Shown here in pieces: positions 655 to 59,000 of a stretch of DNA of 64,000 bases. The notes under the pieces are model-generated. The model had not been told where the DNA came from, searched no databases, and was given only the letters and a program-made list of their open reading frames with translations. Both the position numbers and the translations under genes were made by a program. Origin of the DNA: an uncultured Candidatus Saccharibacteria bacterium (GTDB lineage: Bacteria; Patescibacteriota; Minisyncoccia; Phycocordibacterales; Zambryskibacteraceae); contig CAZYVS010000001.1 of the NCBI GenBank assembly GCA_964651655.1, forward strand, positions 5,132-69,131. Direction: 5' to 3'. Numbering within the stretch: the first letter of the stretch is position 1; every line of letters begins with the position of its first letter.

Positions 655-2373
655 TTATTTTCTGATGCTTTCTAATTTTTCATGCTCTGCAAGACTTTGT
701 AAATGTCGAGTTTTTTCACCCTCAAACGCTTCCCTATCAAACCGATGATTGGCTATTAAAGAGGCGGCATGACTGGCGCCTAAGTAGTGAGGCATGATTA
801 CATAAGAAGCCCCCGCATGATAAAGCGCGTGTGTATCCGGAATATTGTGAGAAATTGTAACAAAGATACCTTCAGAGTTACGGCTTCGATAATGTGCGAG
901 CAAAGAAATATTGGTACGAAAATCCGGAATAGTGGACACAACCAGTTTGGCTTCGGAGAGATTTATTTCGTCCAGAAATTCGAGATCTTCCGCATCGCCG
1001 AAGCGGTATGGAACATGTTGCAATCTGGCGCGTTCAATGGCAGAAGGGTCATAATCTACCACCAGATAATTACCGGCGATCTGATTGGCTGTTTTGACGA
1101 AGTCATGCCCCACTCGATCGTAACCGAAAATAATAATCTCAAAATTTTCCCTTACATTATTTTCTGTCTTGCGTAATTTCCTAAACGTAATGAATTTCAG
1201 AACCGGTTTTAAGAAAGCATAAATATTGTCTGCATGTTGGATAAAGTAAGTCGAACCGATAATGGTAATCACCCCAACCAAGGTGACAAGAGAAACCGTC
1301 TCCAAATTAACGTGGCCGAGAGAAAACGCCAGCGCGATGAGAATAAGAGAAAACTCGCTGATTTGCGCCACCGTCAACCCGACCATGAAGGCGGTGCGGG
1401 TCCGATATCCAATGAGATTCATCAAAATAATTACAATCAAAGGATTACCAATCAAAACAAAGACGCTTAAGATTATGGCTGCGCCAAGGAGATTTGAAAA
1501 TTGGCCAAAAAGAATTTGTGAACCGAGTAAAACAAAGAAAAGCATAATAAAGAAATCTCGAAGCGGTTTCATCTTGGCGGCAATCTCGTAAGCGAAGGGA
1601 GAAGCCGCCAGAGTGATACCGGCCAGCAGCGCGCCAATTTCAACGGAAAAGCCTATGGTATAAAAAAGGGCCGACATACCCAATCCCCAAGCCAAAGAGA
1701 AAATAAACAGCACTTCCTGCGAACCGGCCACGAATCGGGAAAGGCCCGGTAAAACATATTTGCTGACAAGATAAAGAAAGACCGCCGCCAGCGCTCCCTT
1801 GCCCAAGAGCGTCGTTATTTCCATGAAAGCAAAGCGAGAAGGATCGCCTGTCGAGAGAGCGGCCGTGGCGCCCACAACCGTGATCATAAGGAGGAAAATG
1901 ACAGCCACAATGTCCTGGACAAGAAGAAGGCCGATGGATATCTTGCCATAAAGTTTGCCGAGGTCTCCCCTATCCGAAAGCAATTTAAGAACGATAATGG
2001 TGCTGGAAAAAGTAAGCGCGATGGCGATATAGATCGCCGAAAGTGTGTTAAAACCTAAAAATCGAACTAAGAAATAGCCAATGACGGAAGTGAAAATAAC
2101 TTGCCCGACTCCGGTAATAAAGGAGGGCTTTCCCACTTCTCGCATGACGTCTGGATTCAGAGTCAGTCCGACTATAAAGAGAAGCAGAGCAATGCCTATT
2201 TTAGAAAAAAATTCTATTTCTTCGCGAGAATAAAGAATATTTAACACGTATGGCCCCACAATAACGCCGGTAACGATATAACCGACAATCAGAGGCTGTT
2301 TAAAAAACTTTGTCACTAATGAAACAAGAGTGGCAATGATGATTATCAAAGAAATTTCGATAAAAATTACCAT
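655..2373 (-). CDS. monovalent cation:proton antiporter (CPA2/Kef-type) with C-terminal RCK/TrkA-N domain
   Basis: N-terminal roughly 400 aa is polytopic membrane sequence typical of Na+/H+ exchanger family. C-terminus has an 'IIIFGYDRVGHDFVK...VVDYDP...' Rossmann-like TrkA-N/RCK fold. Confidence 0.6.
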   Translation of the reverse strand: MVIFIEISLIIIIATLVSLVTKFFKQPLIVGYIVTGVIVGPYVLNILYSREEIEFFSKIGIALLLFIVGLTLNPDVMREVGKPSFITGVGQVIFTSVIGYFLVRFLGFNTLSAIYIAIALTFSSTIIVLKLLSDRGDLGKLYGKISIGLLLVQDIVAVIFLLMITVVGATAALSTGDPSRFAFMEITTLLGKGALAAVFLYLVSKYVLPGLSRFVAGSQEVLFIFSLAWGLGMSALFYTIGFSVEIGALLAGITLAASPFAYEIAAKMKPLRDFFIMLFFVLLGSQILFGQFSNLLGAAIILSVFVLIGNPLIVIILMNLIGYRTRTAFMVGLTVAQISEFSLILIALAFSLGHVNLETVSLVTLVGVITIIGSTYFIQHADNIYAFLKPVLKFITFRKLRKTENNVRENFEIIIFGYDRVGHDFVKTANQIAGNYLVVDYDPSAIERARLQHVPYRFGDAEDLEFLDEINLSEAKLVVSTIPDFRTNISLLAHYRSRNSEGIFVTISHNIPDTHALYHAGASYVIMPHYLGASHAASLIANHRFDREAFEGEKTRHLQSLAEHEKLESIRK

Positions 2374-4019
2374 TTCTTTTTCTTTATTACGACTTTAATA
2401 AAGGCGGTGAAGAGCGGATGCGGCGCCAGCGGTCGGGCCTTGAATTCCGGATGAAACTGTGTTGAAAGAAAGAAAGGATGAATATCTTTTGGTAATTCGG
2501 CTATTTCACAAAGACGCCCGTCCGGAGACAAACCGGAGAAAATCATCCCCGCTTTCTCAAGTCTTTCAACATAATTTGGATTAATTTCAAAGCGGTGCCT
2601 GTGCCTTTCGGAAATCTCGCGCCTCCCATAGGCTTCATAGGCAAGCGTTTTGAGCTTGAGCACTGCGGGATATGCGCCGAGACGCATGGTGCCGCCAAGT
2701 TTGCCGTCTTTTATTTTATTTTTTTGGTCCTCCATCACGTTGATAACGGGACAGGAAGTATTTTTATCTACTTCAGTGGTATGAGCGCCCTTAAGACCGG
2801 CGACCGAACGCGAATATTCAATCACTGCCAATTGCATACCATAACAAAGCCCGAGATACGGAATTTTATTTTCTCTGGCAAATTTAATGGTGCTGATAAT
2901 CCCTTCCACCCCATTGGCGCCAAAGCCGCCGGGCACTATCACTCCGTCAAATTTTTTAAGTTCGTTGATTTTGCGCTTACCTGTTTCGTATTCTTTGGCA
3001 TTGATCCATGTCAATTCAGGTTTAACATTTTGCCAATAGGCGGAAAATTTAACCGCCTCAATAACTGAAACGTAGGCATCGGAAAGCATAAAATCTCCGG
3101 TATCAAAATATTTACCTATCACTGCTATTTTGATTTTTTTCTTGGCAGATTCAGTTTTTGAGACAAATTTTTTCCAAGCAATCAAATCTTTTTTGCGCGG
3201 CCGCAAGTTAAAGTGGCTCAAAATTCTCTCACTCAAACCGTCACGTTCGAAGTTAATGGGCACGTCATAGATGCTTTCAATATCCGGAGCGGCAATAATA
3301 TCTTCGCTCAAGACTCCCGAAGCCAGGGCAATTTTTTCCTTTCGTTTCTGGTCAATGGAAACTTCTGACCGCGCGATAATCATATCTGGCTGAATACCGT
3401 ACGAATTAAGCTGGCGAATGGCGTTCTGGGTCAGTTTGGTTTTCATTTCACCGAGTTTGCCGGGAACCGGCAGATAAGAAACCATCACAAACATCACATT
3501 CTTAGGTTCACGAATTTTTAAAAGACGCGCCGCTTCCAAAAAAATCGAGTTTTGATACTCGCCCACCGTACCGCCTATCTCAACCACAGTAATATCGGCC
3601 TTGGTGTTTTTAACCGAGTGATGAAGACGGTTGAGAATTTCTTCGGTTACATGATAAACCGGCTCAACGCACTTGCCGTCGTAGCCTAGGGCGCGTTCTT
3701 TATCAATAACGTGTTTGAGTATCATACCGTTAGTAAGATAGTTATCCCCCGGCATGTCAGTATTAAGAAAGCGTTCATAATTACCCATGTCTTGATCTGT
3801 TTCTAAACCGGAGTCCAAGACAAAGACTTCTCCGTGTTCAACAGGGTTCATGGTGCCGGCATCGACATTTAAATAAGGGTCAGCTTTGATAAGACTGACC
3901 TTGAAACCTTTTGATTGAAGAATGACTCCGATAGAAGAGGTCGCGATACCCTTGCCGACTCCCGACATTACTCCTCCCACGACAAAGATATATTTATGTT
4001 CTCTCTTCCGTGTGTTCAT
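2367..4019 (-). CDS. pyrG: CTP synthase
   Basis: N-terminus 'KYIFVVGGVMSGVGKGIATSSIG...KADPYLNVDAGTMNP' is the canonical CTP synthase synthetase domain. C-terminal glutamine amidotransferase region has 'GLCYGMQ' with a Cys-His pair. 550 aa. Confidence 0.9.
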   Translation of the reverse strand: MNTRKREHKYIFVVGGVMSGVGKGIATSSIGVILQSKGFKVSLIKADPYLNVDAGTMNPVEHGEVFVLDSGLETDQDMGNYERFLNTDMPGDNYLTNGMILKHVIDKERALGYDGKCVEPVYHVTEEILNRLHHSVKNTKADITVVEIGGTVGEYQNSIFLEAARLLKIREPKNVMFVMVSYLPVPGKLGEMKTKLTQNAIRQLNSYGIQPDMIIARSEVSIDQKRKEKIALASGVLSEDIIAAPDIESIYDVPINFERDGLSERILSHFNLRPRKKDLIAWKKFVSKTESAKKKIKIAVIGKYFDTGDFMLSDAYVSVIEAVKFSAYWQNVKPELTWINAKEYETGKRKINELKKFDGVIVPGGFGANGVEGIISTIKFARENKIPYLGLCYGMQLAVIEYSRSVAGLKGAHTTEVDKNTSCPVINVMEDQKNKIKDGKLGGTMRLGAYPAVLKLKTLAYEAYGRREISERHRHRFEINPNYVERLEKAGMIFSGLSPDGRLCEIAELPKDIHPFFLSTQFHPEFKARPLAPHPLFTAFIKVVIKKKKW

Positions 4020-6804: not shown

Positions 6805-8322
6805 TTAATACCGATTATGAATTTCAACGGCTCGTTGGAAAAGAGCGATATATTTTTTAGCCGAACTTATCCACGAAAAATCCGCTGCCATGGCTCGTTT
6901 TTGAAGCGCCCGCCAGTCTTTCTTGTCGCGGAAATTTTCAAAAGCGCGAACGAAAGAAATCATAAGCGATGAAGAGTCAAACCGTTCAAAAGTGAAGCCG
7001 GTACCGGTTTCTTTGTTGGGATTATAATCTTCAACGCTGTCGGCCAAACCGCCGGTTTTTCTGACAATCGGTATAGCGCCCATTCTCATTGCTTCCATCT
7101 GGACAAGTCCGCATGGTTCAAATTGCGACGGTACTAGTACCGCGTCAACCCCCGCAAAAACCAAATGAGGCAAGACATTATCAAACTTCAAGTGTGTTGC
7201 CACTTTTTCGGGATATTTGCTTTCAAGGTCATGAAAGAAACCCATAAACTCCCCCTCTCCCACCACGATAAGTTGTATCGGAAGTTCATTTAAAAGTGTT
7301 TCCATCACGTGAAGCAGTAGGTCCAGACCTTTTTGTTTAGTCAGACGACCGACGATACTTACAATAAACGCATTCTTGTCAATCGGCAGTCTAAAGCGTT
7401 CCTGCAGAGCGGTTCTATTTTTGCACCGCAGGTCAAGATGTTTGGAATCATAAGTCGATTCTATATTTGCATCGATTTCCGGATTCCAAAGGTCATAATC
7501 AATGCCATTCAGTATCCCGGACAAAACCGCGCGGCGTTCGCGCAAAAGATCGTCGAGAAGCTCGCCGTATTCTTCGGTCATAATTTCTTTGGCGTAGGTT
7601 GGCGACACGGTATTAATGACATCGGAATAAATAATTCCCCGGCGCATGCCATTTAAATGTTCAAGCCGAGGAGAATTAAACCCGGGTATGGACGAATGTC
7701 CGTCGTCAAAATCCATTTCCGAAACAAATTTATGGTCAAACATCGCCTGGAAATACAAATTATGAATGGTTAAAACGGAAGCGATTTTGGAAAGTACCGG
7801 ATCGTTTTTGTAAACGGTCTTGAGAAAATTGGCAACCAGTCCCGTCTGCCAATCGGAAGAAACGACAACATCCGGGGTCCAATTGGAATGCAATCGGACA
7901 AACTCTAGAGCACCCCGGCAAAGAAGAGCCCAGCGAACCGCGTCATCGGCGTAACCGTAAACATTGGCCCTTTGTTCGTAATATTCTTGATTTTCCAAAA
8001 AATAAGTGGTAACCGGGTCAGTATCTTTCTTCTTGGGATCATAACGCTTGACATTGCAAACAAGATGAGCCGGCTCGTTTTCATTTCCTGTCGGCACTTC
8101 AAGCCCCTTGAAATCAAGCTTTAATTTATATATGTTTTCGTCCACCGAAAGATACTTGGGAATTATTACTCGAGCGTCATGTCCCAGTTCGCGAAGAGCG
8201 CGCGGCAGAGAATAAATGACCGAACCGAGACCCCCCACTTTAACAAAAGGCGCCGCTTCGGTGGCAACAAAGAGGATTTTGAGACTTTTCTTGGTCTGGA
8301 AAATTCCCATTACACTTTTCAT
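6805..8322 (-). CDS. glgA: glycogen (starch) synthase, GT5 family
   Basis: N-terminal 'KILFVATEAAPFVKVGGLGSV' is the GlgA KxGGL motif region. C-terminal GT-B region 'QFEPCGLVQMEAMRMGAIPIVRKTGGLADSV' is present. Confidence 0.85.
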   Translation of the reverse strand: MKSVMGIFQTKKSLKILFVATEAAPFVKVGGLGSVIYSLPRALRELGHDARVIIPKYLSVDENIYKLKLDFKGLEVPTGNENEPAHLVCNVKRYDPKKKDTDPVTTYFLENQEYYEQRANVYGYADDAVRWALLCRGALEFVRLHSNWTPDVVVSSDWQTGLVANFLKTVYKNDPVLSKIASVLTIHNLYFQAMFDHKFVSEMDFDDGHSSIPGFNSPRLEHLNGMRRGIIYSDVINTVSPTYAKEIMTEEYGELLDDLLRERRAVLSGILNGIDYDLWNPEIDANIESTYDSKHLDLRCKNRTALQERFRLPIDKNAFIVSIVGRLTKQKGLDLLLHVMETLLNELPIQLIVVGEGEFMGFFHDLESKYPEKVATHLKFDNVLPHLVFAGVDAVLVPSQFEPCGLVQMEAMRMGAIPIVRKTGGLADSVEDYNPNKETGTGFTFERFDSSSLMISFVRAFENFRDKKDWRALQKRAMAADFSWISSAKKYIALFQRAVEIHNRY

Positions 8323-12152: not shown

Positions 12153-12268
12153 ATCGCATTATTTTAACACGCAATGATTTCCACAACAAGATGACGGGTT
12201 GTAAAAAAACAAAAAACATCATTAAGCGTTTTCTAGTATTTTTTAGCATTGCAATATACTACACACCC

Positions 12269-12286
12269 GGTATGATATATCATACC
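12269..12286. promoter_or_regulatory. 18-bp perfect palindrome GGTATGATATATCATACC (candidate operator), copy 1
   Basis: Self-complementary 18-mer overlapping the start of the YerC-like gene. An identical copy lies 465 bp downstream. Confidence 0.5.
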
Positions 12287-12703
12287 TTTATGAAGGTACG
12301 GGCAAAATCATTAACTAAAGAGCAGCGGATAGAAACGCTTGACACACTCTACACAGCTGCCGCCTCGGTACAAGGAAGGACGGCAGTGAAGCTTTTTTTA
12401 CGAGACTTGCTTACCGAGAGTGAACGTATTATGTTGGGACGTCGAATCATTATTGCCCGCAAACTCATTAGAGGAACCAGCCGTGACGATATAGCCGCGG
12501 AACTGCGGGTCGGTTACGATACTATCCACCGCGTTCATCGATGGCTTCACGACCAATTTCCCGGTTACGAACAAGCTGTCAAAGGGATGGAGAAAGAATT
12601 TGAAAAGCGTCGCGGAAAAAAATTGGGCGCAACAAGCGCGCTCTATCGTCTTAAGAAAAAGTATCCATTGCACTTTCTATTATTCCCTTGGCCGAAACAC
12701 TAG
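12272..12703 (+). CDS. TrpR-like / YerC-YecD family DNA-binding protein
   Basis: 'TESERIMLGRRIIIARKLIRGTSRDDIAAELRVGYDTIHRV' matches the Trp-repressor-like YerC/YecD helix-turn-helix core. The start is uncertain: ATG at 12272 or 12290. The ORF-track start at 12128 overlaps ftsE and is unlikely. The start region overlaps an 18-bp perfect palindrome. Confidence 0.55.
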   Translation: MIYHTFMKVRAKSLTKEQRIETLDTLYTAAASVQGRTAVKLFLRDLLTESERIMLGRRIIIARKLIRGTSRDDIAAELRVGYDTIHRVHRWLHDQFPGYEQAVKGMEKEFEKRRGKKLGATSALYRLKKKYPLHFLLFPWPKH

Positions 12704-12733
12704 CGTATACATTTCGTGTCTAGTTTTATTTGA

Positions 12734-12751
12734 GGTATGATATATCATACC
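12734..12751. promoter_or_regulatory. 18-bp perfect palindrome GGTATGATATATCATACC (candidate operator), copy 2
   Basis: Identical palindrome, here 20 bp including the flanking A/T. Lies 48 nt upstream of the ATG of ORF 12800..13363. Confidence 0.5.
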
Positions 12752-12799
12752 TCTGGACTATCTTGACTCAAACTTAATACTTTGTGGTATATTTAAATT

Positions 12800-13363
12800 A
12801 TGGACGGAAGCAAACAAATCGCCGTTGTTCTCGCCATCTTAGCAGCCGGAAGTATACTCTTCGTCGGCAACCGGGATATCTCTTCTTATTTCCCGTCATT
12901 CTCCTTCTCACTCCCCTCTTTAGAAATTTCCCGGAATAGTACCGACGCGACCCTATCGGTCGAGGCATGGAATATCTTTCAGAATTACCTAAAATTTGCT
13001 AAAAATCACGATCTTATCGGTATCCGCAGTCTCTCGCACCAAATCTCCGCGACCTGTAACGACCCTGCGAAAGAAAACGACTGTTTCGCTCTGATGGATA
13101 GCGTCTACTCCTTTGCCAGCCCTCTTAAATTGAGCGATTTTAACCATATCCAATCGGATGAACGCCAAATAGTTATGTACACGGACGGTCCCACGGTGGC
13201 TACCTTATATTTCACTAGAAATGCAGACGACACAAAAGTGCTCGGCATGAGATTTTGTTTCGAAGATGAAACAACTATCGGAACTTGTGTAATGATTGAC
13301 TCTCTTAAACAGGATTCAAACAACAACGGCTGGTGGGACAGCGTTGAATCCCTCTTCTATTAA
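12800..13363 (+). CDS. hypothetical membrane-anchored protein
   Basis: 187 aa with an N-terminal TM helix, then Cys-containing soluble domain. A candidate operator palindrome lies upstream. Confidence 0.4.
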   Translation: MDGSKQIAVVLAILAAGSILFVGNRDISSYFPSFSFSLPSLEISRNSTDATLSVEAWNIFQNYLKFAKNHDLIGIRSLSHQISATCNDPAKENDCFALMDSVYSFASPLKLSDFNHIQSDERQIVMYTDGPTVATLYFTRNADDTKVLGMRFCFEDETTIGTCVMIDSLKQDSNNNGWWDSVESLFY

Positions 13364-22226: not shown

Positions 22227-22323
22227 TTTGAACTAAAATGTCTATTTTCATTATATACTTTATTATATAAAAGATTAAGCGGAGACAATATTGTCTCCGC
22301 TAGACCACCTCCTTTCTAACTCG

Positions 22324-25333: not shown

Positions 25334-25375
25334 CGTCCGTACAATATATCATACGGCGGGCAGATTTAAGGAGTC

Positions 25376-41656: not shown

Positions 41657-43161
41657 ACATCCTCGACAAAATCGTGAGAAGCATGTCGGGTTCTTCCGCC
41701 GAGGAGATAGCAATGGTAAAGAAAGCTTTTGCCTTCGTCGAGCGGGCGCACCTTGAACACAAAAGACTTTCGGGTGAACCGTATCTCAAACATTTATCGG
41801 AAACGGCCCAAATCTTGACGGATCTGGGAGCGGGAGGAGCCACGATAGCGGCCGGATTACTCCACGATACCATCGAGGACGTCGGTATAAAAAGAGAAGA
41901 AATCGTCAAAGAATTTGGGGAAGAAATTGCTTTTCTCGTCGAAGGCGTAACCAAACTCGGACATCTCAAGTACAGGGGCATCGATCGTCACAACGAGAGT
42001 CTGCGAAAACTTTTCGTCGCCATGTCGGAGGACATCAGGGTGCTTCTTATTAAACTTGCAGACCGCCTGCACAACATGAGAACGCTCTCTTATGTGCCAA
42101 AAGATAAACAAAGACGAATAGCGGCTGAAACGCTTGAAATTTATGCGCCTATCGCCTACCGGTTAGGCATTAGGAAAATTAATCGCGAACTTGAGGACCT
42201 TTCTTTCCCCTATGTTTATCCCAAGGCCTATGAAGAAATGACGAAGGCGCTCAAAGAGCGGCATCAAGATAGAATTGAAAGTTTAGAGAAATTCTCCCAC
42301 TCTGTTATCAAAACACTCGTGAAAGAAGGACTGACTACGGCTAAGACAGAGTATCGAGTGAAGGGTCTTTATAGTCTCTACAAAAAATATCTTAGGTATG
42401 ACAAAGACTTGGAAAAAATTTACGATGTTAATGCCATACGCATTATGGTAGATTCCGTTGCCGATTGTTATCAAGCGCTGGGAGCCATACACGGACGTTG
42501 GAGACCCCTGCCTCATCGCATTAAAGATTATATCGCTTTCCCAAAACCGAACGGCTATCAAGCTCTGCATACGACCGTCTTTGTCGGCGATGGCAATATT
42601 GTGGAAGTTCAAATCAAGACCCACGAAATGTACCGGTATTCCGAATACGGTGTGGCTTCCCACCTTTTGTACAAAGCAGACAAGCAGGGCAAAAAAATTT
42701 TGGATTGGATATACGCTCTCTTGCCCAAACTAAGAAGAACCGGCAACCCAAGCGCTCTTCAGGAAAAAGATGTGCCCAAATGGATTTCGGAATTGGCATC
42801 ATACCGAGGACCGGCAAAAAATCAACGCCTCTTCCGCGAACGATTGGCCAGCGATTTTTTCAATTATCGCATATTTGTTTTTTCGCCCAAGGGCGACGTG
42901 GTAGACCTGCCGATCGGCTCAACACCCATTGACTTCGCCTATTCGATACACTCCAATATCGGCGACCACATGACAGGCGCTAAGGTCAATGGCAAATTAG
43001 TCGCGCTAGATACGGAGCTTCACAACGGAGATATTGTCTTTATCATGACAAGCGAAACCGCCAAGCCCAATCGCAAATGGCTCGATATGACCAAAACCTC
43101 AATGGCGCGCCGCCATATCCGTCGCGAACTTATCAAGCTAAGAGAATCGGAAAACTCTTAA
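41617..43161 (+). CDS. rel: bifunctional (p)ppGpp synthetase/hydrolase, RelA/SpoT family (short, no ACT domain)
   Basis: HD domain 'HLEHKRLSGEPYLKHLSETAQIL...GLLHDTIEDV'. Synthetase 'GLYSLYKKY...NAIRIMVDSVADCYQALGAIHGRWRP...DYIAFPKPNGYQALHTTV'. TGS 'GDVVDLPIGSTPIDFAYSIHSNIG'. The start may be an internal Met, since 41617 overlaps the topA end. Confidence 0.85.
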   Translation: MPKSQSAQNQPDVNILDKIVRSMSGSSAEEIAMVKKAFAFVERAHLEHKRLSGEPYLKHLSETAQILTDLGAGGATIAAGLLHDTIEDVGIKREEIVKEFGEEIAFLVEGVTKLGHLKYRGIDRHNESLRKLFVAMSEDIRVLLIKLADRLHNMRTLSYVPKDKQRRIAAETLEIYAPIAYRLGIRKINRELEDLSFPYVYPKAYEEMTKALKERHQDRIESLEKFSHSVIKTLVKEGLTTAKTEYRVKGLYSLYKKYLRYDKDLEKIYDVNAIRIMVDSVADCYQALGAIHGRWRPLPHRIKDYIAFPKPNGYQALHTTVFVGDGNIVEVQIKTHEMYRYSEYGVASHLLYKADKQGKKILDWIYALLPKLRRTGNPSALQEKDVPKWISELASYRGPAKNQRLFRERLASDFFNYRIFVFSPKGDVVDLPIGSTPIDFAYSIHSNIGDHMTGAKVNGKLVALDTELHNGDIVFIMTSETAKPNRKWLDMTKTSMARRHIRRELIKLRESENS

Positions 43162-44084
43162 AGGCTAAAATTGGCGACCGAATAGAGAGATTCGTCGTCT
43201 CCGCTACCAGTCAGAGACGGCGCCTCCGCTGTCGAAAAGTTTTGTTCCGGTTGATTCTTGATTTTCTCGTCAGAAATAATTCTATCCAACAAGGCGCGCA
43301 GATCGTCTTTGTTGAAGAAATCAATCGTCACCCGGCCGCCTTCTTCCTTTTTTTCTATCCGCACCCGAGTGCCAAGTTTTTCTTTGAATTGATCTTCAAT
43401 GTCTATCAGTTCCTGGTCAATAAGTTTGCGAGCGCGCTCCACCGCAATATGGCGAGCAATACCTTCGGCTTCCCTGACATTGAGTTTTTTAAAAATAATT
43501 TCTTTGAAAAGAGTCTCCTGCTCCTGCGGTCGGTCTATCAGCATCATCAGCGGACGGGTGTGGCCTTCGGTAATCTTGTTTTCCGAGAGCGCATTAATAA
43601 TGTAATCCGGAAGCGTAAGAATGCGCAAAGAATTTGAAACATATTCGCGGCTCTTGCCGACTTTCTTGCCTATCTCATGGTGTTTGAAATTAAATTCTTT
43701 TACCAATCGATCAAAGGCTCGCGCCCGGTCCACCGGACTAAGATCCTCGCGTTGGATATTCTCGATGATAGCGAGCTCAAGTTTCATCAAATCCGTTTCT
43801 TCACCGGTGCGGATAAGTACCGGCACTTGCGCGAGACCGGCTAGGCGAGCGGCGCGAAGGCGCCGCTCGCCGGCTACCAATTCGTACTCTACGCCGATAC
43901 CGCCGTCTTCTTTTATTATTTCATTACGCGTCACGACCAGAGCCTGAAGCACGCCATATTGGCGAATTGAATCCGCGAGACTTCTTAATTGAACCTCGTC
44001 AAATCCGCGGCGCGGTTGAAATGGGTTTGGTTTGATTTTATCCACCTCTATCCAGAAAATGGAATCGTTATAGAATCGTGACAT
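43158..44084 (-). CDS. parB: ParB/Spo0J-family partition protein
   Basis: 'KPNPFQPRRGFDEVQLRSLADSIRQYGVLQALVV' is the ParB N-terminal CTPase/nuclease-like box. 'GLAQVPVL' follows. HTH region present. Confidence 0.8.
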   Translation of the reverse strand: MSRFYNDSIFWIEVDKIKPNPFQPRRGFDEVQLRSLADSIRQYGVLQALVVTRNEIIKEDGGIGVEYELVAGERRLRAARLAGLAQVPVLIRTGEETDLMKLELAIIENIQREDLSPVDRARAFDRLVKEFNFKHHEIGKKVGKSREYVSNSLRILTLPDYIINALSENKITEGHTRPLMMLIDRPQEQETLFKEIIFKKLNVREAEGIARHIAVERARKLIDQELIDIEDQFKEKLGTRVRIEKKEEGGRVTIDFFNKDDLRALLDRIISDEKIKNQPEQNFSTAEAPSLTGSGDDESLYSVANFSL

Positions 44085-44297: not shown

Positions 44298-47021
44298 ATG
44301 GGTTCTGCAACAGAAATTGCGTGGCACACAAAACCGGTCTCAAAAGTTTTAGAGATATTAAAATCGAGTGAACACGGACTCTCAAGCATTGAGGTAAAAC
44401 ATAGGCTTGAAGAGAATGGGCCAAATGTTTTGCCGGAGTCAAGGCCGGATAATGTTGCTCTTATCTTTCTGCGGCAATTTCAGAGTCCATTAATTTATAT
44501 TCTCCTGGCCGCAGCTTTGGCGGTATTTTTTATAGGAGAGAAAACCGATGGTATTGTTATTATCACAGTTCTCATTTTGAATGCCGTTGTCGGCTCTATT
44601 CAAGAAGGTCGGGCCAGAAATACTCTCCTGGCCTTAAAGCAATACGTGGAAACAAAGGCGGTAGTTTTGCGGGACGACAAAGAAATTATTATTGCCGATT
44701 CGCAGGTGGTGGTAGGAGACATTATCTTACTCCAAGGAGGCGAAAAAATAGCGGCCGATGCAAGAATCATATCCGCACAAAATCTCAAGATTGACGAATC
44801 TTCTCTTACCGGAGAATCAGGGGCGGTGCATAAAACGTCTGACACCTTGGATAATCCAAATCTGACTGCGCAAGAAGAACGCAACATGCTATTCAAAGGC
44901 ACTCACGTGGTCGCCGGCAATGGCAAGGCCATAGTGGTAAGAACCGGGGTGGAAACAATTATCGGTAAAATAGCCAAGGAAGTATCTTTAATTGAGAAAG
45001 AGATCCCGCTTAAAACCAACATTCGCAACCTCTCAAGAATAATTATTCTAATTACGGTGGGTGTCAGCGCTCTTTTATTTATCGTCGGTATTATCTCCGG
45101 CAAATCTATAATTGAGATGCTTGTCTTTGTTATTTCAATTTCGGTTTCCATCATTCCAGAGGGCCTGCCAGTTGCTATTACCGTCATATTGGCCACCGGA
45201 GTTTGGAGGATGAGTAAGAGAAACGCCCTAATTAAACGTCTGCAAGCGGTAGAAGCGCTCGGACAAGCAAAAGTCATCGCAGTCGATAAGACGGGAACCA
45301 TTACCAAAAATGAAATGGTGGTTCAAACCATTCATGTGGACGGTCAGATGTTTGAGATTGACGGAGTCGGATATGAACCGAAGGGTGATATAAGAATCAA
45401 CAAACAAATTATAAATCCGCCCAATCACCCGGAACTTCTACTTTGTGGTAAAATCGCCGCTCTCTCGGCCAGCGCCAGAGTCATGCTTCAAGAAAAAACT
45501 ACGGAATGGAAAATCTCCGGCGACCCAACGGAAGCGGCCATGGTGGTGCTCGCCAGAAAGTTGGGTTTCAATAGAGATGATCTGGAACACGAATCACCGC
45601 TCATGGCAGAGATACCTTTCGACTACAACACTAAATATCATGCGACTCTACATAAAGATAAGGAAACAAATTTCTTAGCAGTAGCCGGCGCGCCCGAAGT
45701 AATTTTAGAAAATTCAAATAAAATTTGGCAAGATAACAAAGAAATAGGCCTCTCTCCCGAACGCAAAGAAGAATTGATATCTATATTCTTCGACATTTCA
45801 AGAAGAGGGCTTAGAGTTCTGGCACTGGCTTCAAGTTCGCGCGGCTCTGACGATTTAAATCAGGAAGATGTAATGAATCTGACCTTTACCGGATTCTGCG
45901 GTCTCAAGGATGCCTTGCGTCTCGAAGTTAAGGAAGCCACCAAACGCGCCATAGCGGCCGGCATGAGAGTGGTGATGATCACCGGCGACCATCAAACCAC
46001 GGCAGAAGCCATAGCCAAGGAAGCGGGTATTTATAAAACCGGTGATACCAGCCTGACCGGTGTTGAGATAGATAAATTTTCGGACGGCGTGCTTAAAGAA
46101 TACTTGACCAAGACTTCGGTATTTGCCAGAGTCACACCGGAACACAAACTCCGCATTATCAATGCTTATAAAGCCAGAGGAGAAATTATTGCTATGACCG
46201 GCGACGGAGTAAATGACGCGCCATCTCTGGTGGCGGCAGATCTTGGAGTGGCAATGGGTAAGATTGGTACAGAAGTGGCTAAGGAAGCTTCTGATATTGT
46301 CCTCTTGGATGATAATTTCGGCAGTATCGTTTCGGCAATAGAGGAAGGCAGAAACATTTACAAAACAATCACAAAAGTAGTTCTTTATCTTCTGTCTACC
46401 AGTCTGGGTGAACTGCTGGTGATTACGGGAGCCATTTTTGTAGGTCTGCCCTTACCACTTTTACCGGCACAGATCATATGGTTAAACTTCGTCACGGACG
46501 GATTCTTCACTGTCGCTCTTGCCATGGAGCCGAAGGAGCACGGCTTGTTGAGCAAAACATTTAAGAAGCCGGGGAGATATCTGGTGGATACTTTGATGGG
46601 GCAGAGAATATTGCTTATGGCGTTACCAATGCTTGTGATAACTCTTGTGTTGTTTCAAAATTATTTTGAAACAGATTTGGCCAAGGCGTGGACAATCTCT
46701 CTCACTGTCCTCGCCGTCTTTCAATGGTTTAATGCTTGGAATTGCCGTTCCGAAAATAAGTCAATCTTTCAGGCAAATATTTTCGAAAACAGATTTATGG
46801 CGGGCGCTACCTTGGCGGCTTTATCGTTCCAGATACTCGCCGTCTATAATCCCTTGTTCCAAAGATTTTTGCATACCGTACCACTTGCTCTTTCCGATTG
46901 GTTGGTTATTATTGCCCTGGCAACTTCTATTATCTGGGTAGAAGAAGTTAGAAAATTTTTATGGCGCAACAAAAAATCCTCGTTATCGTTGGTCCCACCG
47001 CTTCAGGTAAGTCAAGCCTAG
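44298..47021 (+). CDS. cation-transporting P-type ATPase (type IIA/IIB-like)
   Basis: 'DKTGTITKN' phosphorylation motif. 'MITGDHQTTAEAIA' and 'MTGDGVNDAPSLVAADLGVAMG' hinge motifs. Ten TM helices. 907 aa. Confidence 0.85.
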   Translation: MGSATEIAWHTKPVSKVLEILKSSEHGLSSIEVKHRLEENGPNVLPESRPDNVALIFLRQFQSPLIYILLAAALAVFFIGEKTDGIVIITVLILNAVVGSIQEGRARNTLLALKQYVETKAVVLRDDKEIIIADSQVVVGDIILLQGGEKIAADARIISAQNLKIDESSLTGESGAVHKTSDTLDNPNLTAQEERNMLFKGTHVVAGNGKAIVVRTGVETIIGKIAKEVSLIEKEIPLKTNIRNLSRIIILITVGVSALLFIVGIISGKSIIEMLVFVISISVSIIPEGLPVAITVILATGVWRMSKRNALIKRLQAVEALGQAKVIAVDKTGTITKNEMVVQTIHVDGQMFEIDGVGYEPKGDIRINKQIINPPNHPELLLCGKIAALSASARVMLQEKTTEWKISGDPTEAAMVVLARKLGFNRDDLEHESPLMAEIPFDYNTKYHATLHKDKETNFLAVAGAPEVILENSNKIWQDNKEIGLSPERKEELISIFFDISRRGLRVLALASSSRGSDDLNQEDVMNLTFTGFCGLKDALRLEVKEATKRAIAAGMRVVMITGDHQTTAEAIAKEAGIYKTGDTSLTGVEIDKFSDGVLKEYLTKTSVFARVTPEHKLRIINAYKARGEIIAMTGDGVNDAPSLVAADLGVAMGKIGTEVAKEASDIVLLDDNFGSIVSAIEEGRNIYKTITKVVLYLLSTSLGELLVITGAIFVGLPLPLLPAQIIWLNFVTDGFFTVALAMEPKEHGLLSKTFKKPGRYLVDTLMGQRILLMALPMLVITLVLFQNYFETDLAKAWTISLTVLAVFQWFNAWNCRSENKSIFQANIFENRFMAGATLAALSFQILAVYNPLFQRFLHTVPLALSDWLVIIALATSIIWVEEVRKFLWRNKKSSLSLVPPLQVSQA

Positions 47022-47875
47022 CTGTTCGATTAGCAAAAAAATTCAACGGAGAGATAATTTCCGCCGACTCGCGACAAGTCTATAAAGGTCTCGATATTGG
47101 TACGGGTAAAATCACTAAACAAGAGATGCGGGGCGTGCCACATCACCTGCTCAACGTTGCCAATCCTAAAAAACAATTCTCGGTGTCAGAATACAAAACT
47201 CTGGCTGAAAATAACTTACGATATATCGTAAGTTGTGGAAAATTGCCTATAGTTGTTGGGGGAACGGGTTTTTACATAGATACCCTTACCGGAAGAATTA
47301 ACTTTCCTAACGTGCCGCCGGACAAGAAACTTCGAGAGAAACTTTCTCAAAAATCTATTGAGACACTTTTTGAAATGTTGATGAAAAAAGATCCGACTAG
47401 AGCCAAAACAATCGACAAATATAACAAGGTTCGTCTGATCCGCGCTCTAGAGATTATCAAGAAAATTGGCTCCATTCCCCCACTTGGAAGCTCAACCTCC
47501 AAGTCTCGGTACCGCTTCATATTTATCGGATTAAAGCCAGATGACCTCGACAAAAGAATTTACAAAAGATTACTTATAAGATTTAACGGTATAATTCGTG
47601 AAGGCAAAAAACTGCATAAACAAGGACTGTCATACAAACGTATGTATGAACTTGGGCTTGAATACCGATATATTGGTATGTATTTGCAAAATAAAATCTC
47701 TAAAAAAGAAACAATGGATAAACTTTATTTGGCAATCAAACACTACGCCAAGCGGCAAATGACCTGGTTTAAGCGAAATAAAGAAATTAGATGGTTTACC
47801 ATGAGCTCTGTCGAAGGGTTCAAACCGGAAACATACAAAGAGATAGAAAAATATACTGGACGTATGCTAGGATGA
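46961..47875 (+). CDS. miaA: tRNA dimethylallyltransferase
   Basis: '[45 protein letters not shown]' P-loop N-terminus, typical of MiaA. Contains an in-frame 'PLGSSTSK' element. Confidence 0.85.
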   Translation: [304 protein letters not shown]

Positions 47876-47882
47876 CGTCACT

Positions 47883-47955
47883 GGGCGATTAGTTAAGTGG
47901 TATAACTTCGGTCTCCACCCCGTCGCTCGCGAGCGACGGGGTCCAAAACCGATAT
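47883..47955 (+). pseudogene. partial tRNA-Trp copy (5' portion, nt 1 to about 45) with 28-nt insertion in the anticodon loop
   Basis: GGGCGATTAGTTAAGTGGTATAACTTCGGTCTCC is identical to the 5' half of the intact tRNA-Trp at 48209. A perfect 24-nt palindrome CCCCGTCGCTCGCGAGCGACGGGG (47908..47931) follows. Then comes ...AAAACCGATAT, abutting the ATG of GIY-YIG copy 3. Confidence 0.55.
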
Positions 47956-58811: not shown

Positions 58812-58856
58812 GTATACAACACTGTATCGGCGGTGGGTTTTTCTTTTTATATAAAT

Positions 58857-58884
58857 GCTAACATACGATATATCGTATGTTAGC
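58857..58884. terminator. 28-bp perfect palindrome between convergent rnr and smc (bidirectional terminator candidate), related to the YerC-operator palindrome
   Basis: GCTAACATACGATA|TATCGTATGTTAGC. The central ACGATATATCGT resembles the GATATATC core of the palindromes at 12269 and 12734. Confidence 0.45.
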
Positions 58885-59000
58885 TAGACACGGAGCAAAT
58901 GTAGGACAGAAAAACGTCACGGACGCCGACGGGCGGAGTGGAGTGTGCGTTTTGAGCACAAAACGATAGCGCGTTTTTCTGAACTATATTTGCGGAGTAT

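What the first reader, a model, noticed from the sequence alone, without database searches (positions are those of the whole stretch)
12269..12751. TrpR/YerC-like regulator bracketed by two identical 18-20-bp perfect palindromes (candidate auto-regulated two-gene regulon)
GGTATGATATATCATACC occurs exactly twice in 64 kb. One copy overlaps the start codon and -10 region of the YerC/TrpR-family gene. The other lies 48 nt upstream of the next gene (12800..13363, a membrane-anchored Cys-containing protein). A perfect palindrome of this length, duplicated at two consecutive promoters, is a textbook dimeric-repressor operator arrangement. The YerC/YecD family has no well-defined regulon, so this gives a direct hypothesis for its binding site and target. 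A related palindrome (ACATACGATATATCGTATGT core) at 58857-58884 may be a third site, or merely a terminator.
Basis: partly seen in the sequence, partly recalled or inferred. Interest (0 to 1): 0.55.

Follow-up and report, generated by a model that had tools for sequence, protein, structure and literature searches.

The report
Self-bracketed TrpR-like repressor gene
A small DNA-binding regulator gene of an uncultured, tiny-genome (CPR/Patescibacteria) bacterium carries its own 18-22-bp palindromic binding site at both ends; this layout recurs in about 85% of related genomes, apparently undescribed, and it gives a directly testable operator for a widespread regulator of unknown function.

Summary
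GGTATGATATATCATACC occurs exactly twice in 64 kb (12269-12286 and 12734-12751; 0.01 expected). The two copies flank a 137-aa Trp_repressor-fold gene (12290..12703).

Comparative data support the autoregulation idea but not the "two-gene regulon":
- In 66 of 79 related Patescibacteria loci the orthologue has the same word (at least 12 nt, median 19) just upstream of its start and just after its stop.
- The palindrome core differs between species and between paralogues, but it matches between the two copies of one locus.
- The core co-varies with residues that align to the TrpR DNA-contact residues Arg69 and Ala80.
- The upstream copy always overlaps the -10 or -35 element of a leaderless promoter. 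This points to autorepression.
- The downstream copy belongs to the regulator gene, not to the next gene. The next gene is convergent in 53 of 68 loci, and no promoter geometry accompanies the copy.
- Homologues of the 12800 gene appear only beside the closest relatives.
- A second, divergent TrpR-like subfamily is bracketed in the same way (11 of 11 loci).

The role of the 3' copy is inferred, not shown. It could be a looping partner or a roadblock/terminator.

The "third" palindrome at 58857, and a fourth inside miaA, have a different core (TACGATATATCGTA). They probably belong to a paralogue encoded elsewhere in the genome.

Verdict: a new variant of a known kind. Interest is moderately high.

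The parts
12249..12254 (+). -35-like hexamer TTGCAA of the regulator's promoter. The support is weak.
   Evidence: The consensus scan finds TTGCAA-16-TATGAT. TTGC is kept at the same spacing in the 90%-identical relative L104.
12269..12286 (.). Upstream 18-bp perfect palindrome GGTATGATATATCATACC. It is the inferred operator and overlaps the -10 element and the transcription start of the regulator gene.
   Evidence: It is the only invariant block in the alignment of upstream regions from relatives. A cognate palindrome sits at the same place in orthologues.
12278..12283 (+). -10-like hexamer TATCAT, 6 nt before the ATG, giving leaderless geometry. The alternative -10 is TATGAT at 12271-12276.
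   Evidence: 60 of 79 orthologues have such a hexamer 4-10 nt before the start, against 12% at random positions; 17 of 29 unit-first genes in the window share this geometry and only 3 have an SD-like motif.
12290..12703 (+). TrpR-fold HTH regulator gene, 137 aa, with the stop codon included. It belongs to a long-form subfamily with a conserved C-terminal extension (..ATSALYRLKKKYPLHFLLFPxPK).
   Evidence: PF01371 at 46.8 bits. Alignments A1 and A2. AF2 model with pLDDT 85, all-alpha, with extra helices at 93-131. The closest PDB entries are 3FRW, 3KOR and 3G1C.
12732..12753 (.). Downstream 22-bp perfect palindrome GAGGTATGATATATCATACCTC, starting 29 nt after the stop. It is the second cognate site and belongs to the regulator gene's 3' end.
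   Evidence: It is conserved in relatives while the flanks diverge. The same-core copy follows the stop in most orthologues. As RNA it forms a 9-bp stem with a 4-nt loop and has no T-tract.
12765..12793 (+). Promoter of the next gene: TTGACT, 17 nt, then TATATT with an upstream TG (TGGTATATT), 6 nt before the ATG at 12800. The palindrome does not overlap it.
   Evidence: Read from the sequence. The extended -10 and the spacing are conserved in L104.
12800..13363 (+). 187-aa lineage-specific gene encoding a protein with an N-terminal hydrophobic helix. It is context only and not a conserved partner of the regulator.
   Evidence: It has no Pfam, NCBIfam, PADLOC or PHROGs match. Homologues appear only in L104 and L116, at 67% identity.
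58857..58884 (.). 28-bp perfect palindrome with core TACGATATATCGTA, between convergent RNase R-like and SMC genes. It is related in type but is probably the site of a paralogous regulator.
   Evidence: The same core brackets other TrpR-like genes: L047 in subfamily 2 and L054 in subfamily 1.
47213..47234 (.). 22-bp perfect palindrome AACTTACGATATATCGTAAGTT inside the miaA-like ORF. It has the same core as the palindrome at 58857.

Best explanation
The 137-aa protein is a dimeric TrpR-fold helix-turn-helix repressor. Its cognate site is the roughly 20-bp palindrome centred on ATATAT.

The upstream copy lies on the -10 element and transcription start of the gene's own leaderless promoter. Bound protein would therefore occlude RNA polymerase, giving negative autoregulation. 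This step is inferred from position, from conservation and from protein-DNA co-variation.

The second copy, placed just after the stop codon, is part of the same self-contained module. It is not the operator of the next gene. I think its most likely role falls into one of two options:
(a) It is a second operator that cooperates with the first by looping out the roughly 465-bp gene, with the family-specific C-terminal helices providing the dimer-dimer contact.
(b) It is a protein roadblock or hairpin that ends transcription and shields the gene from convergent transcription.
The evidence does not separate these two roles, and both are inference.

The effector of the regulator, if there is one, is unknown.
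For: Family:
- PF01371 is matched above its cut-off.
- The profile finds the YerC/HisR-type structures 3FRW, 3KOR and 3G1C and E. coli TrpR.
- Top fold matches are all TrpR-like, but with weak E-values of 0.05-0.5.

Site conservation:
- About 75 of 79 orthologues have an ATATAT-centred palindrome just upstream of the start.
- The palindrome is the only invariant block in close relatives.

Promoter overlap:
- The distance from palindrome centre to ATG is bimodal.
- At about 12-20 nt the right arm supplies the -10 element (TATCAT or TAGTAT, then N6, then ATG).
- At about 27-33 nt the palindrome's TTGATA is the -35 element, with a 16-17-nt spacer to a -10 that lies 6-7 nt before the ATG.
- 60 of 79 loci have such a -10, against 12% at control positions.
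- Leaderless geometry is the norm in the window.

Specific recognition:
- Asp77, which aligns with TrpR Ala80, pairs with TG at -5/-4 in 34 of 34 cases.
- Non-Asp residues pair with a non-G base in 35 of 36 cases.
- There are at least 5-7 independent switches on a tree built without the HTH region.
- Arg66, which aligns with TrpR Arg69, goes with the TTGATA class in 12 of 13 cases, against 3 of 21 in the ATGATA class.
- Paralogues within one genome always have different cores.

Bracket:
- The up and down regions share a word of at least 12 nt in 66 of 79 loci (median 19). Mismatched-locus controls give 25 of 237 (median 8).
- The shared half-site has a median of 10 nt, which makes a 20-bp core, the size of TrpR and HisR operators.
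- A second, divergent PF01371 subfamily is bracketed in 11 of 11 loci.

Self-containment:
- Only 5 further cognate sites (at most 2 mismatches) occur in 319 kb of flanks. Three of those lie within 250 bp of the gene.
Against: - No binding or expression data exist; every functional step is inferred.
- Many copies are perfect palindromes far longer than any dimer footprint, up to 62 bp. The outer arms differ between the two copies of a locus. Operator function alone does not explain this.
- There is no significant helical phasing between the two copies (best Rayleigh p 0.04, uncorrected).
- T-tracts follow only 16 of 63 downstream copies, and not the window's copy.
- Oligomerisation beyond a dimer was not testable.
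- A regulator whose only strong sites flank its own gene has no evident output.
- The exact 18-mer also brackets a different TrpR-like subfamily that has another recognition helix (TRQT). It also precedes unrelated XRE-type genes in other bacteria. The base-to-residue rule therefore holds only within the subfamily.
Confidence: 0.6

Rival explanations
1. The two palindromes are operators at two consecutive promoters, and the regulator controls itself and the next gene (12800..13363) as a two-gene regulon.
For: In the window and in the closest relatives (L104 and L116, 90% identical regulator) the 187-aa gene follows co-directionally. Its palindrome sits 48 nt upstream, and the promoter is conserved. 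A site centred near -57 could in principle act as an activator or as an upstream repressor site.
Against: - The downstream copy keeps its position relative to the regulator's stop, whatever follows it.
- The next gene is convergent in 53 of 68 loci.
- Downstream copies are not enriched for promoter geometry: 17-21%, against 36% for upstream copies.
- In the window the palindrome ends 11 nt upstream of the -35, so it does not occlude the promoter.
- The 187-aa gene is absent from all other loci.
Confidence: 0.15
2. The palindromes act mainly as nucleic-acid structures, not as protein sites. They would be DNA cruciforms or RNA hairpins serving as bidirectional terminators or insulators around a gene that is transcribed against its neighbours. 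Their identity within a locus would come from duplication or gene conversion.
For: - The copies are perfect palindromes, often much longer than a protein footprint.
- 11 downstream copies have arms of the form A-tract, stem, T-tract.
- In many convergent pairs the palindrome fills the whole intergenic gap.
- The regulator is antisense to both neighbours in 41 of 68 loci, against a background of 22% (p about 1e-11).
- The (AT)3 centre favours cruciform extrusion; this point is from my own knowledge.
Against: - Bases at -4 to -6 co-vary with HTH residues aligned to TrpR contact positions.
- Only the roughly 20-bp core is shared by the two copies, while the outer arms differ.
- Paralogues keep distinct cores.
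- With a leaderless start the upstream copy is not transcribed.
- Mismatches in imperfect copies are not G-T biased.
- The stems are AT-rich, 47 of 63 downstream copies lack a T-tract, and the window hairpin region folds at only z = -1.6.
- Gene conversion between 20-bp repeats is inefficient; this point is from my own knowledge.
Confidence: 0.12
3. The module is the master copy of a genome-wide palindrome system. The protein would bind dispersed copies of its palindrome for chromosome organisation or global control, in the manner of ParB/KorB. Alternatively the palindrome is a proliferating mini-element whose cognate gene is flanked by it, in the manner of REPIN-RAYT.
For: - One groundwater population (ERZ1292625, six contigs, about 430 kb, coverage 12-13) carries at least 10 exact copies of the 18-mer. 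Two bracket a subfamily-2 regulator. Eight are intragenic and in frame.
- In Dus, TsaD-like and UvrB-like genes the site sits in a 10-17-aa insertion that orthologues lack, including the window's own Dus.
- The window has two orphan palindromes of another core, one of them intragenic.
Against: - For subfamily 1 the flanks are almost free of further sites (319 kb), and the 64-kb window has none.
- The protein has no nuclease, transposase or ParB-type domain.
- Neighbouring genes are syntenic within clades (secA, obg, gatB), which indicates vertical descent.
- No homologues were found in viral contigs, and there are no PADLOC or PHROGs hits.
- The metagenome scan is subject to ascertainment bias and to chance hits in a very large database.
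Confidence: 0.13

Closest known systems
E. coli TrpR (Trp repressor) with its trp, aroH and trpR operators
   Same: - It has the same fold family (PF01371). Residues 36-83 align with TrpR 38-86 at hhalign probability 93%.
- It is presumed to be a dimeric HTH protein.
- Its operator is an 18-20-bp palindrome that overlaps the promoter.
- TrpR autoregulates through a site at its own gene; this point is from my own knowledge and from PMC9413887.
- The co-varying residues map to the TrpR contact residues Arg69 and Ala80.
   Different: - It scores below the TrpR equivalog cut-off (23.8 against 67.25 bits).
- It has about 40 extra C-terminal residues with an invariant tail.
- Its operator sequence is unrelated to TGTACTAGTTAACTAGTACA.
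- It has a second site after its stop codon.
- No trp or aro regulon is evident.
- It is confined to Patescibacteria in the loci fetched.
HisR (YerC/YecD), the histidine repressor of Firmicutes (PMC9413887)
   Same: - It provides the closest solved structures: 3FRW, 3KOR and 3G1C, at E 7e-9 to 2e-6.
- Its operators are 20-bp palindromes with lineage-specific consensus sequences.
- It often has a site upstream of its own gene.
   Different: - The window protein scores below the YerC/YecD cut-off (23.8 against 42.2 bits).
- HisR proteins are shorter than 100 aa, whereas this one has 137.
- The HisR motif cacTTTAnnnnnnTAAAgtg is different.
- HisR sites lie at his biosynthesis and transport genes. 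Here the sites flank the regulator gene itself.
Phage lambda CI with OR and OL flanking the cI-rex operon (recalled from memory)
   Same: A repressor gene is bracketed by two sets of its own operators. In lambda, cooperative looping between them tightens repression and autoregulation. This is a 'works like' analogy for option (a).
   Different: - The fold is different.
- In lambda the distance is about 2.4 kb and each side has three sites.
- Octamerisation is demonstrated for CI. For this protein oligomerisation is untested.
REPIN-RAYT systems, also called REPtrons (recalled from memory)
   Same: A single-copy, vertically inherited gene is flanked by its cognate palindromes. The palindrome type co-evolves with the protein, and different paralogues carry different palindromes. 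In some lineages dispersed copies exist.
   Different: - There is no HUH/Y1 transposase domain.
- The copy number is tiny: 2 in this 64-kb window.
- Dispersed copies were seen only in some lineages, and there mostly inside genes.
ParB/KorB-type proteins with parS/OB palindromes (recalled from memory)
   Same: An HTH protein binds 14-16-bp perfect palindromes that can lie next to or inside its own operon and inside other genes. One site doubles as an autoregulatory operator.
   Different: - There is no ParB N-terminal or CTPase domain.
- There is no adjacent parA gene.
- The fold is different.

Membership tests
Pfam PF01371 Trp_repressor superfamily | The profile HMM score is above the gathering cut-off. 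| tested here: met
   46.8 bits against a cut-off of 27, E 3.1e-12, covering residues 16-99. hhalign to E. coli TrpR gives probability 93%.
TrpR proper (NCBIfam TIGR01321 equivalog) | The equivalog HMM score is above its cut-off. | tested here: not met
   23.8 bits against a cut-off of 67.25.
TrpR proper | The operator resembles TGTACTAGTTAACTAGTACA, and the regulon consists of trp and aro genes. | tested here: not met
   The site is GGTATGATATATCATACC. The flanking genes are ftsE/ftsX and a lineage-specific gene. The nearby EPSP-synthase-family gene is murA, not aroA.
YerC/YecD = HisR (NCBIfam TIGR02531) | The family HMM score is above its cut-off. | tested here: not met
   23.8 bits against a cut-off of 42.2.
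YerC/YecD = HisR | The protein is about 100 aa. Its sites (cacTTTAn6TAAAgtg) lie at his biosynthesis and transport genes, and histidine is the co-repressor. | tested here: not met
   The protein has 137 aa with a C-terminal extension. The motif is different, and the sites flank its own gene. The co-repressor was not testable.
Autoregulated palindrome-binding HTH repressor (functional class) | A cognate palindrome overlaps the core promoter of the protein's own gene and is conserved across orthologues. | tested here: met
   Binding itself is not testable with these tools.
Autoregulated palindrome-binding HTH repressor (functional class) | Co-variation between recognition residues and operator bases. 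| tested here: met
   Asp77 pairs with TG in 34 of 34 cases. Arg66 pairs with TTGATA in 12 of 13 cases. There are at least 5 independent switches.
REPIN-RAYT | The gene encodes an HUH/Y1 transposase. | tested here: not met
   Only PF01371 and generic HTH hits were found.
REPIN-RAYT | The gene is flanked by its cognate palindromes, and there are many dispersed copies. | tested here: inconclusive
   Flanking is met in 66 of 79 loci. Dispersal is absent from the window and from 319 kb of flanks, but it is present in one groundwater population for subfamily 2.
Looped two-operator repression (lac, gal or lambda type) | The protein forms tetramers or higher oligomers that bridge two operators. | not testable with these tools
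   Only a monomer model could be built. Two operators 446-586 bp apart are present. No phasing signal is expected or seen at that distance.
Intrinsic (Rho-independent) terminator | A G+C-rich stem is followed by a T-tract. | tested here: not met
   The scan reports no terminator at 12732-12753. The stem is AT-rich with no T-tract, and the region folds at z = -1.57. Only 16 of 63 downstream copies in relatives have a T4+ run.

The most novel reading that the evidence does not exclude
The bracketed gene is the home copy of a previously unrecognised protein-palindrome system of Patescibacteria. Each long-form TrpR-like paralogue would co-evolve with its own ATATAT-centred palindrome. In some lineages that palindrome spreads through the chromosome, including as in-frame 'GMIYHT' insertions in housekeeping genes such as dus, uvrB and tsaD. 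It would act either as a set of chromosome-level binding sites or as a REPIN-like mini-element served by an HTH protein rather than by a transposase.
Probability: 0.15. Interest if true: 0.85.

Novelty: new variant of a known kind. Interest (0 to 1): 0.62.

Why it matters
CPR/Patescibacteria have very few transcription factors, and none of those known to me has a defined site. Nothing turned up in six full-text searches.

This long-form TrpR-like family is widespread. The profile finds 417 clusters (50% identity) at E <= 1e-10, and genomes carry 1-3 paralogues. It is also unusually conserved, at 60-85% identity across the class.

The analysis yields several things that can be tested directly:
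- base-resolution operator predictions for dozens of orthologues;
- a residue-to-base specificity rule (Asp77 with TG, Arg66 with TTGATA);
- a leaderless promoter architecture;
- a conserved "operator at both ends of the gene" layout whose logic (looping, roadblock or insulation) is open.

All of these can be tested in vitro or in E. coli without cultivating the organism. The work also corrects start-codon calls that begin inside the palindrome.

Tried and rejected
- RNA-hairpin reading. Mismatches in imperfect copies are not G-T biased. With a leaderless start the upstream copy is not transcribed. Rfam has no hit in the window apart from tRNAs.
- Intrinsic terminator at 12732-12753. There is no T-tract, the scan is negative, and z is -1.57.
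- Helical phasing of the two copies. The Rayleigh test over periods 9.5-12 bp gives a best p of 0.04, uncorrected, which is not convincing.
- Downstream copy as a promoter or operator. It shows no enrichment of -10 hexamers at the right spacing on either side.
- Mobile element, phage or defence origin. There are no relatives in viral contigs and no PADLOC or PHROGs hits. Neighbours are syntenic housekeeping genes.
- Link to aromatic amino-acid genes through the EPSP-synthase-family gene that carries a quasi-site at its promoter. The gene is murA, not aroA.
- The match at 24435 (TTGGATATATCGTA) is not palindromic and was dismissed as chance.
- A second regulator copy or a subfamily-2 gene in the window. 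None was found by tblastn.
- Fold search. The top hits are all TrpR-like, but the E-values are weak (0.05-0.5) because a monomer model of an intertwined dimer was used. It counts only as consistency.
- The metagenome scan for the exact 18-mer was meant as a regulon test. It is confounded by database size and ascertainment, and only the within-genome counts are usable.
- Source organism. The look-ups returned no name, only SRA-run assemblies with the same locus.
Full report
OBSERVATION.
The 18-mer GGTATGATATATCATACC is present at 12269-12286 and 12734-12751. Nothing else in the 64-kb window matches it, even at up to 3 mismatches, against 0.01 expected from shuffles. The second copy is really a 22-bp perfect palindrome at 12732-12753.

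The gene between the copies is 12290..12703. It encodes 137 aa and starts MKVRAK, which is the start shared by all homologues. The upstream palindrome ends 3 nt before that ATG. It contains an in-frame ATG at 12272, which some gene callers wrongly use (P0002 'MIYHTFMKVR'; P0001 is called even longer, at 170 aa).

The protein matches Pfam PF01371 Trp_repressor at 46.8 bits against a cut-off of 27. It scores below the NCBIfam cut-offs for both TrpR (23.8 against 67.25) and YerC/YecD (23.8 against 42.2). A profile of the family finds the YerC/HisR-type structures 3FRW, 3KOR and 3G1C (E 7e-9 to 2e-6) and, more weakly, E. coli TrpR.

The AF2 model has pLDDT 85. It is all-alpha, with three helices (residues 93-131) beyond the TrpR core. 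Fold search returns only TrpR-like proteins at the top, but with weak E-values.

The family has an invariant C-terminal tail, KKKYPLHFLLFPxPK.

THE SITE IS CONSERVED, AND ON BOTH SIDES OF THE GENE.
I fetched 80 loci that encode relatives. All come from Patescibacteria MAGs (Kaiserbacteria, Adlerbacteria, Nomurabacteria, Paceibacterota and others), at 56-84% identity, and several genomes hold 2-3 paralogues.

Nearly every locus has a perfect palindrome centred on ATATAT immediately upstream of the start codon. Unexpectedly, the same palindrome core recurs just after the stop codon.

Using a strict definition (a perfect palindrome of at least 12 bp centred on ATATAT), the 81 sources divide as follows:
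- both copies: 53
- upstream only: 9
- downstream only: 8
- none: 11

An unbiased test asked for the longest word shared by the 150 nt upstream of the start and the 200 nt downstream of the stop. It gives at least 12 nt in 66 of 79 loci (median 19). When the upstream region is paired with another locus's downstream region, it gives 25 of 237 (median 8).

Further measurements:
- The two copies share a median of 10 nt per half-site, which makes a 20-bp core.
- The centres are 446-586 bp apart.
- The downstream centre lies a median of 24.5 nt after the stop.

In close relatives the palindrome is the only invariant block of both intergenic regions. A second, divergent PF01371 subfamily (about 144 aa, starting 'MPHVSRK...', 28-36% identical) is bracketed in the same way in 11 of 11 loci.

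THE CORE CO-EVOLVES WITH THE PROTEIN.
The cores fall into classes: TATGATATATCATA, CTTGATATATCAAG, CCATATATGG, TATCATATATGATA and TTCATATATGAA. Paralogues within one genome always differ.

Within the subfamily two rules hold:
- Residue 77 is Asp exactly when positions -5/-4 are TG (34 of 34). Non-Asp residues go with a non-G base at -4 in 35 of 36 cases.
- Arg66 accompanies the TTGATA class in 12 of 13 cases, against 3 of 21 in the ATGATA class.

On a neighbour-joining tree built without the HTH region, these states change at least 5-7 times. The tree rests on a short protein and is poorly resolved.

hhalign places residue 66 on TrpR Arg69 and residue 77 on TrpR Ala80, with Thr78 on Thr81 and Arg81 on Arg84. 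PMC9413887 lists these TrpR residues as DNA-contacting. This is the strongest available evidence that the encoded protein itself reads the palindrome.

The rule is specific to the subfamily. Subfamily 2 uses the same 18-mer with a different helix, TRQT.

THE UPSTREAM COPY SITS ON THE CORE PROMOTER.
In the window, 17 of 29 genes that begin a transcription unit have a TATAAT-like hexamer ending 4-10 nt before the ATG, and only 3 have an SD-like motif. Leaderless mRNAs therefore appear to be the norm.

60 of 79 regulator genes have such a hexamer, against 12% at random positions. The distance from palindrome centre to ATG is bimodal:
- At about 12-20 nt the right arm provides the -10 element. In the window this is TATCAT at 12278-12283, then N6, then ATG. 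Many others have TAGTAT, N6, ATG.
- At about 27-33 nt the palindrome's TTGATA is the -35 element, with a 16-17-nt spacer to a -10 that lies 6-7 nt before the ATG.

An alternative promoter in the window, TTGCAA-16-TATGAT, also lies within the palindrome. In either case a bound dimer would occlude RNA polymerase. By established principle that means negative autoregulation. This is an inference; nothing was measured.

THE DOWNSTREAM COPY IS NOT THE NEXT GENE'S OPERATOR.
Several results point the same way:
- The next gene is convergent in 53 of 68 loci.
- The regulator is antisense to both neighbours in 41 of 68 loci, against a background of 22% (p about 1e-11).
- Neighbours are housekeeping genes and are syntenic within clades: secA downstream, obg and gatB upstream, plus grpE/dnaK and murA. 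This argues for vertical descent and against mobility.
- Downstream copies are not enriched for promoter geometry.
- In the window the palindrome ends 11 nt upstream of the -35 of the next gene's promoter (TTGACT-17-TATATT, N6, ATG).
- The 187-aa gene has homologues only beside the two closest relatives.

The function of the 3' copy remains open:
- T-tracts follow only 16 of 63 copies, and 11 have A-tract/T-tract arms.
- The window copy has neither, and it folds unremarkably.
- Helical phasing is not significant.
- In many convergent pairs the palindrome fills the whole gap between the two genes.

I favour one of two roles. Either it is a looping partner for the promoter operator, with the extra C-terminal helices as a candidate bridging surface, as with lambda CI at OL/OR. 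Or it is a protein roadblock or hairpin that ends transcription and insulates an autoregulated gene from its convergent neighbour.

OTHER COPIES.
In 319 kb of flanks, cognate cores with at most 2 mismatches are almost absent. There are 5, and 3 of them lie within 250 bp of the gene.

The one match in the window is a quasi-palindrome at 25335-25354 on the leaderless promoter of murA. Chance expectation is 0.18 per window at up to 3 mismatches, so this is only a lead.

The palindromes at 58857 (28 bp, between convergent RNase R-like and SMC genes) and at 47213 (22 bp, inside miaA) share the core TACGATATATCGTA. That core brackets other paralogues, L047 in subfamily 2 and L054 in subfamily 1. All Asp77-type proteins pair with TG, not CG. 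I therefore assign these two sites to a paralogue encoded outside the window.

They break down as follows:
- 10 flank subfamily-1 genes.
- About 14 flank subfamily-2 genes.
- 17 precede two unrelated XRE-type small genes in contigs of other bacteria.
- 48 lie in frame inside ORFs of at least 150 aa, encoding GMIYHT in 36 cases and YDISY in 12.

Much of this is ascertainment in a very large database. One groundwater population is different. Six contigs (about 430 kb, coverage 12-13, 54-57% G+C) hold at least 10 exact copies. Two bracket a subfamily-2 regulator, and eight are intragenic.

In Dus, TsaD-like and UvrB-like proteins the site sits in a 10-17-aa insertion that orthologues lack, including the window's own Dus. 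In UvrC and MurA it arose by substitution. This keeps alive a more novel reading, a dispersed palindrome system, for some lineages.

WHAT REMAINS UNEXPLAINED.
- Each copy is often a perfect palindrome far beyond the shared core, up to 62 bp, with arms that differ between the two copies of a locus.
- There is a strong antisense orientation bias.
- The binding partner of the invariant C-terminal tail is unknown.
- The output of a regulator whose strong sites flank only its own gene is unknown.

COMPARISON AND NOVELTY.
The module works like an autoregulated TrpR- or HisR-type repressor with a 20-bp palindromic operator. It belongs to the PF01371 superfamily. It fails the equivalog tests for both TrpR and YerC/HisR, it carries a C-terminal extension, and its operator sits at both ends of its gene.

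The point is in any case not applicable to this protein.

Six full-text searches found no description of this family or layout. I rate it a new variant of a known kind, with interest 0.62.

Noticed in passing
window, all unit-first genes (e.g. 2367..4019, 43158..44084, 44298..47021): Leaderless-looking promoters are the norm. 17 of 29 genes with an upstream gap of at least 60 nt have a TATAAT-like hexamer ending 4-10 nt before the ATG, often a perfect TATAAT followed by N6-7 and ATG. Only 3 have an SD-like motif.
   Followed up: partly
window 47213-47234 and 58857-58884: Two perfect palindromes of 22 and 28 bp share the core TACGATATATCGTA. One lies inside miaA. The other lies between convergent RNase R-like and SMC genes. 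The same core brackets other TrpR-like paralogues (L047, L054), so a cognate regulator is probably encoded elsewhere in this genome.
   Followed up: partly
window 58812-59000: The convergent intergenic region is highly structured as RNA: -71.3 kcal/mol, z = -8.0. Besides the palindrome hairpin there is a branched element of about 105 nt at 58890-58997. It has no Rfam match.
   Followed up: partly
window 25335-25354 (minus strand): The quasi-palindrome CCGTATGATATATTGTACGG has 2 mismatches to the 16-mer core. It sits 5 nt (GGACG) before the ATG of murA, on that gene's leaderless promoter. In addition, murA is the convergent neighbour of the regulator in L010, L024 and L030, and it carries an intragenic exact 18-mer in L180. 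This could be a weak operator or chance (0.18 expected per window).
   Followed up: partly
L083, L094, L107, L109, L110, L113, L127, L147 (ERZ1292625 contigs, coverage 12-13): One groundwater population carries at least 10 exact copies of the 18-mer in about 430 kb. Eight are intragenic and in frame. In Dus, TsaD-like and UvrB-like genes the site lies in a 10-17-aa insertion that orthologues lack.
   Followed up: partly
L095, L108, L111, L119, L120, L131, L132, L154, L155, L179, L188; L088, L124, L130, L135, L193, L196: The same exact 18-mer lies 17-56 nt upstream of two families of small XRE-type HTH genes in contigs of unrelated bacteria, some of them next to putative outer-membrane-receptor-like ORFs (not annotated with a tool). 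This looks like convergent use of the palindrome as an operator.
   Followed up: no
L089, L090, L113, L123, L165, L174, L082: Subfamily-2 regulators are followed co-directionally by argS, which has a TGnTATACT-N8-ATG promoter. In L113 the argS ORF itself carries an intragenic copy of the palindrome.
   Followed up: no
window 12128/12272 vs 12290; P0001, P0002, L104, L138, L197: Automatic gene calls start the regulator inside or upstream of the palindrome (170-aa or 'MIYHT..' forms), because GGT ATG ATA TAT CAT ACC is in frame. The conserved start is MKV(R/K).
   Followed up: yes
window 7129-7142: CGGTACTAGTACCG is a 14-bp perfect palindrome that contains the GTACTAGT core of the E. coli trp operator. 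I did not examine it.
   Followed up: no
window 22278-22301, 41426-41449, 47917-47942, 461-478: These are other perfect palindromes of 18-26 bp that are not centred on ATATAT. The G+C-rich one at 47917 starts 42 nt after the miaA stop (47875). I did not examine them further.
   Followed up: no
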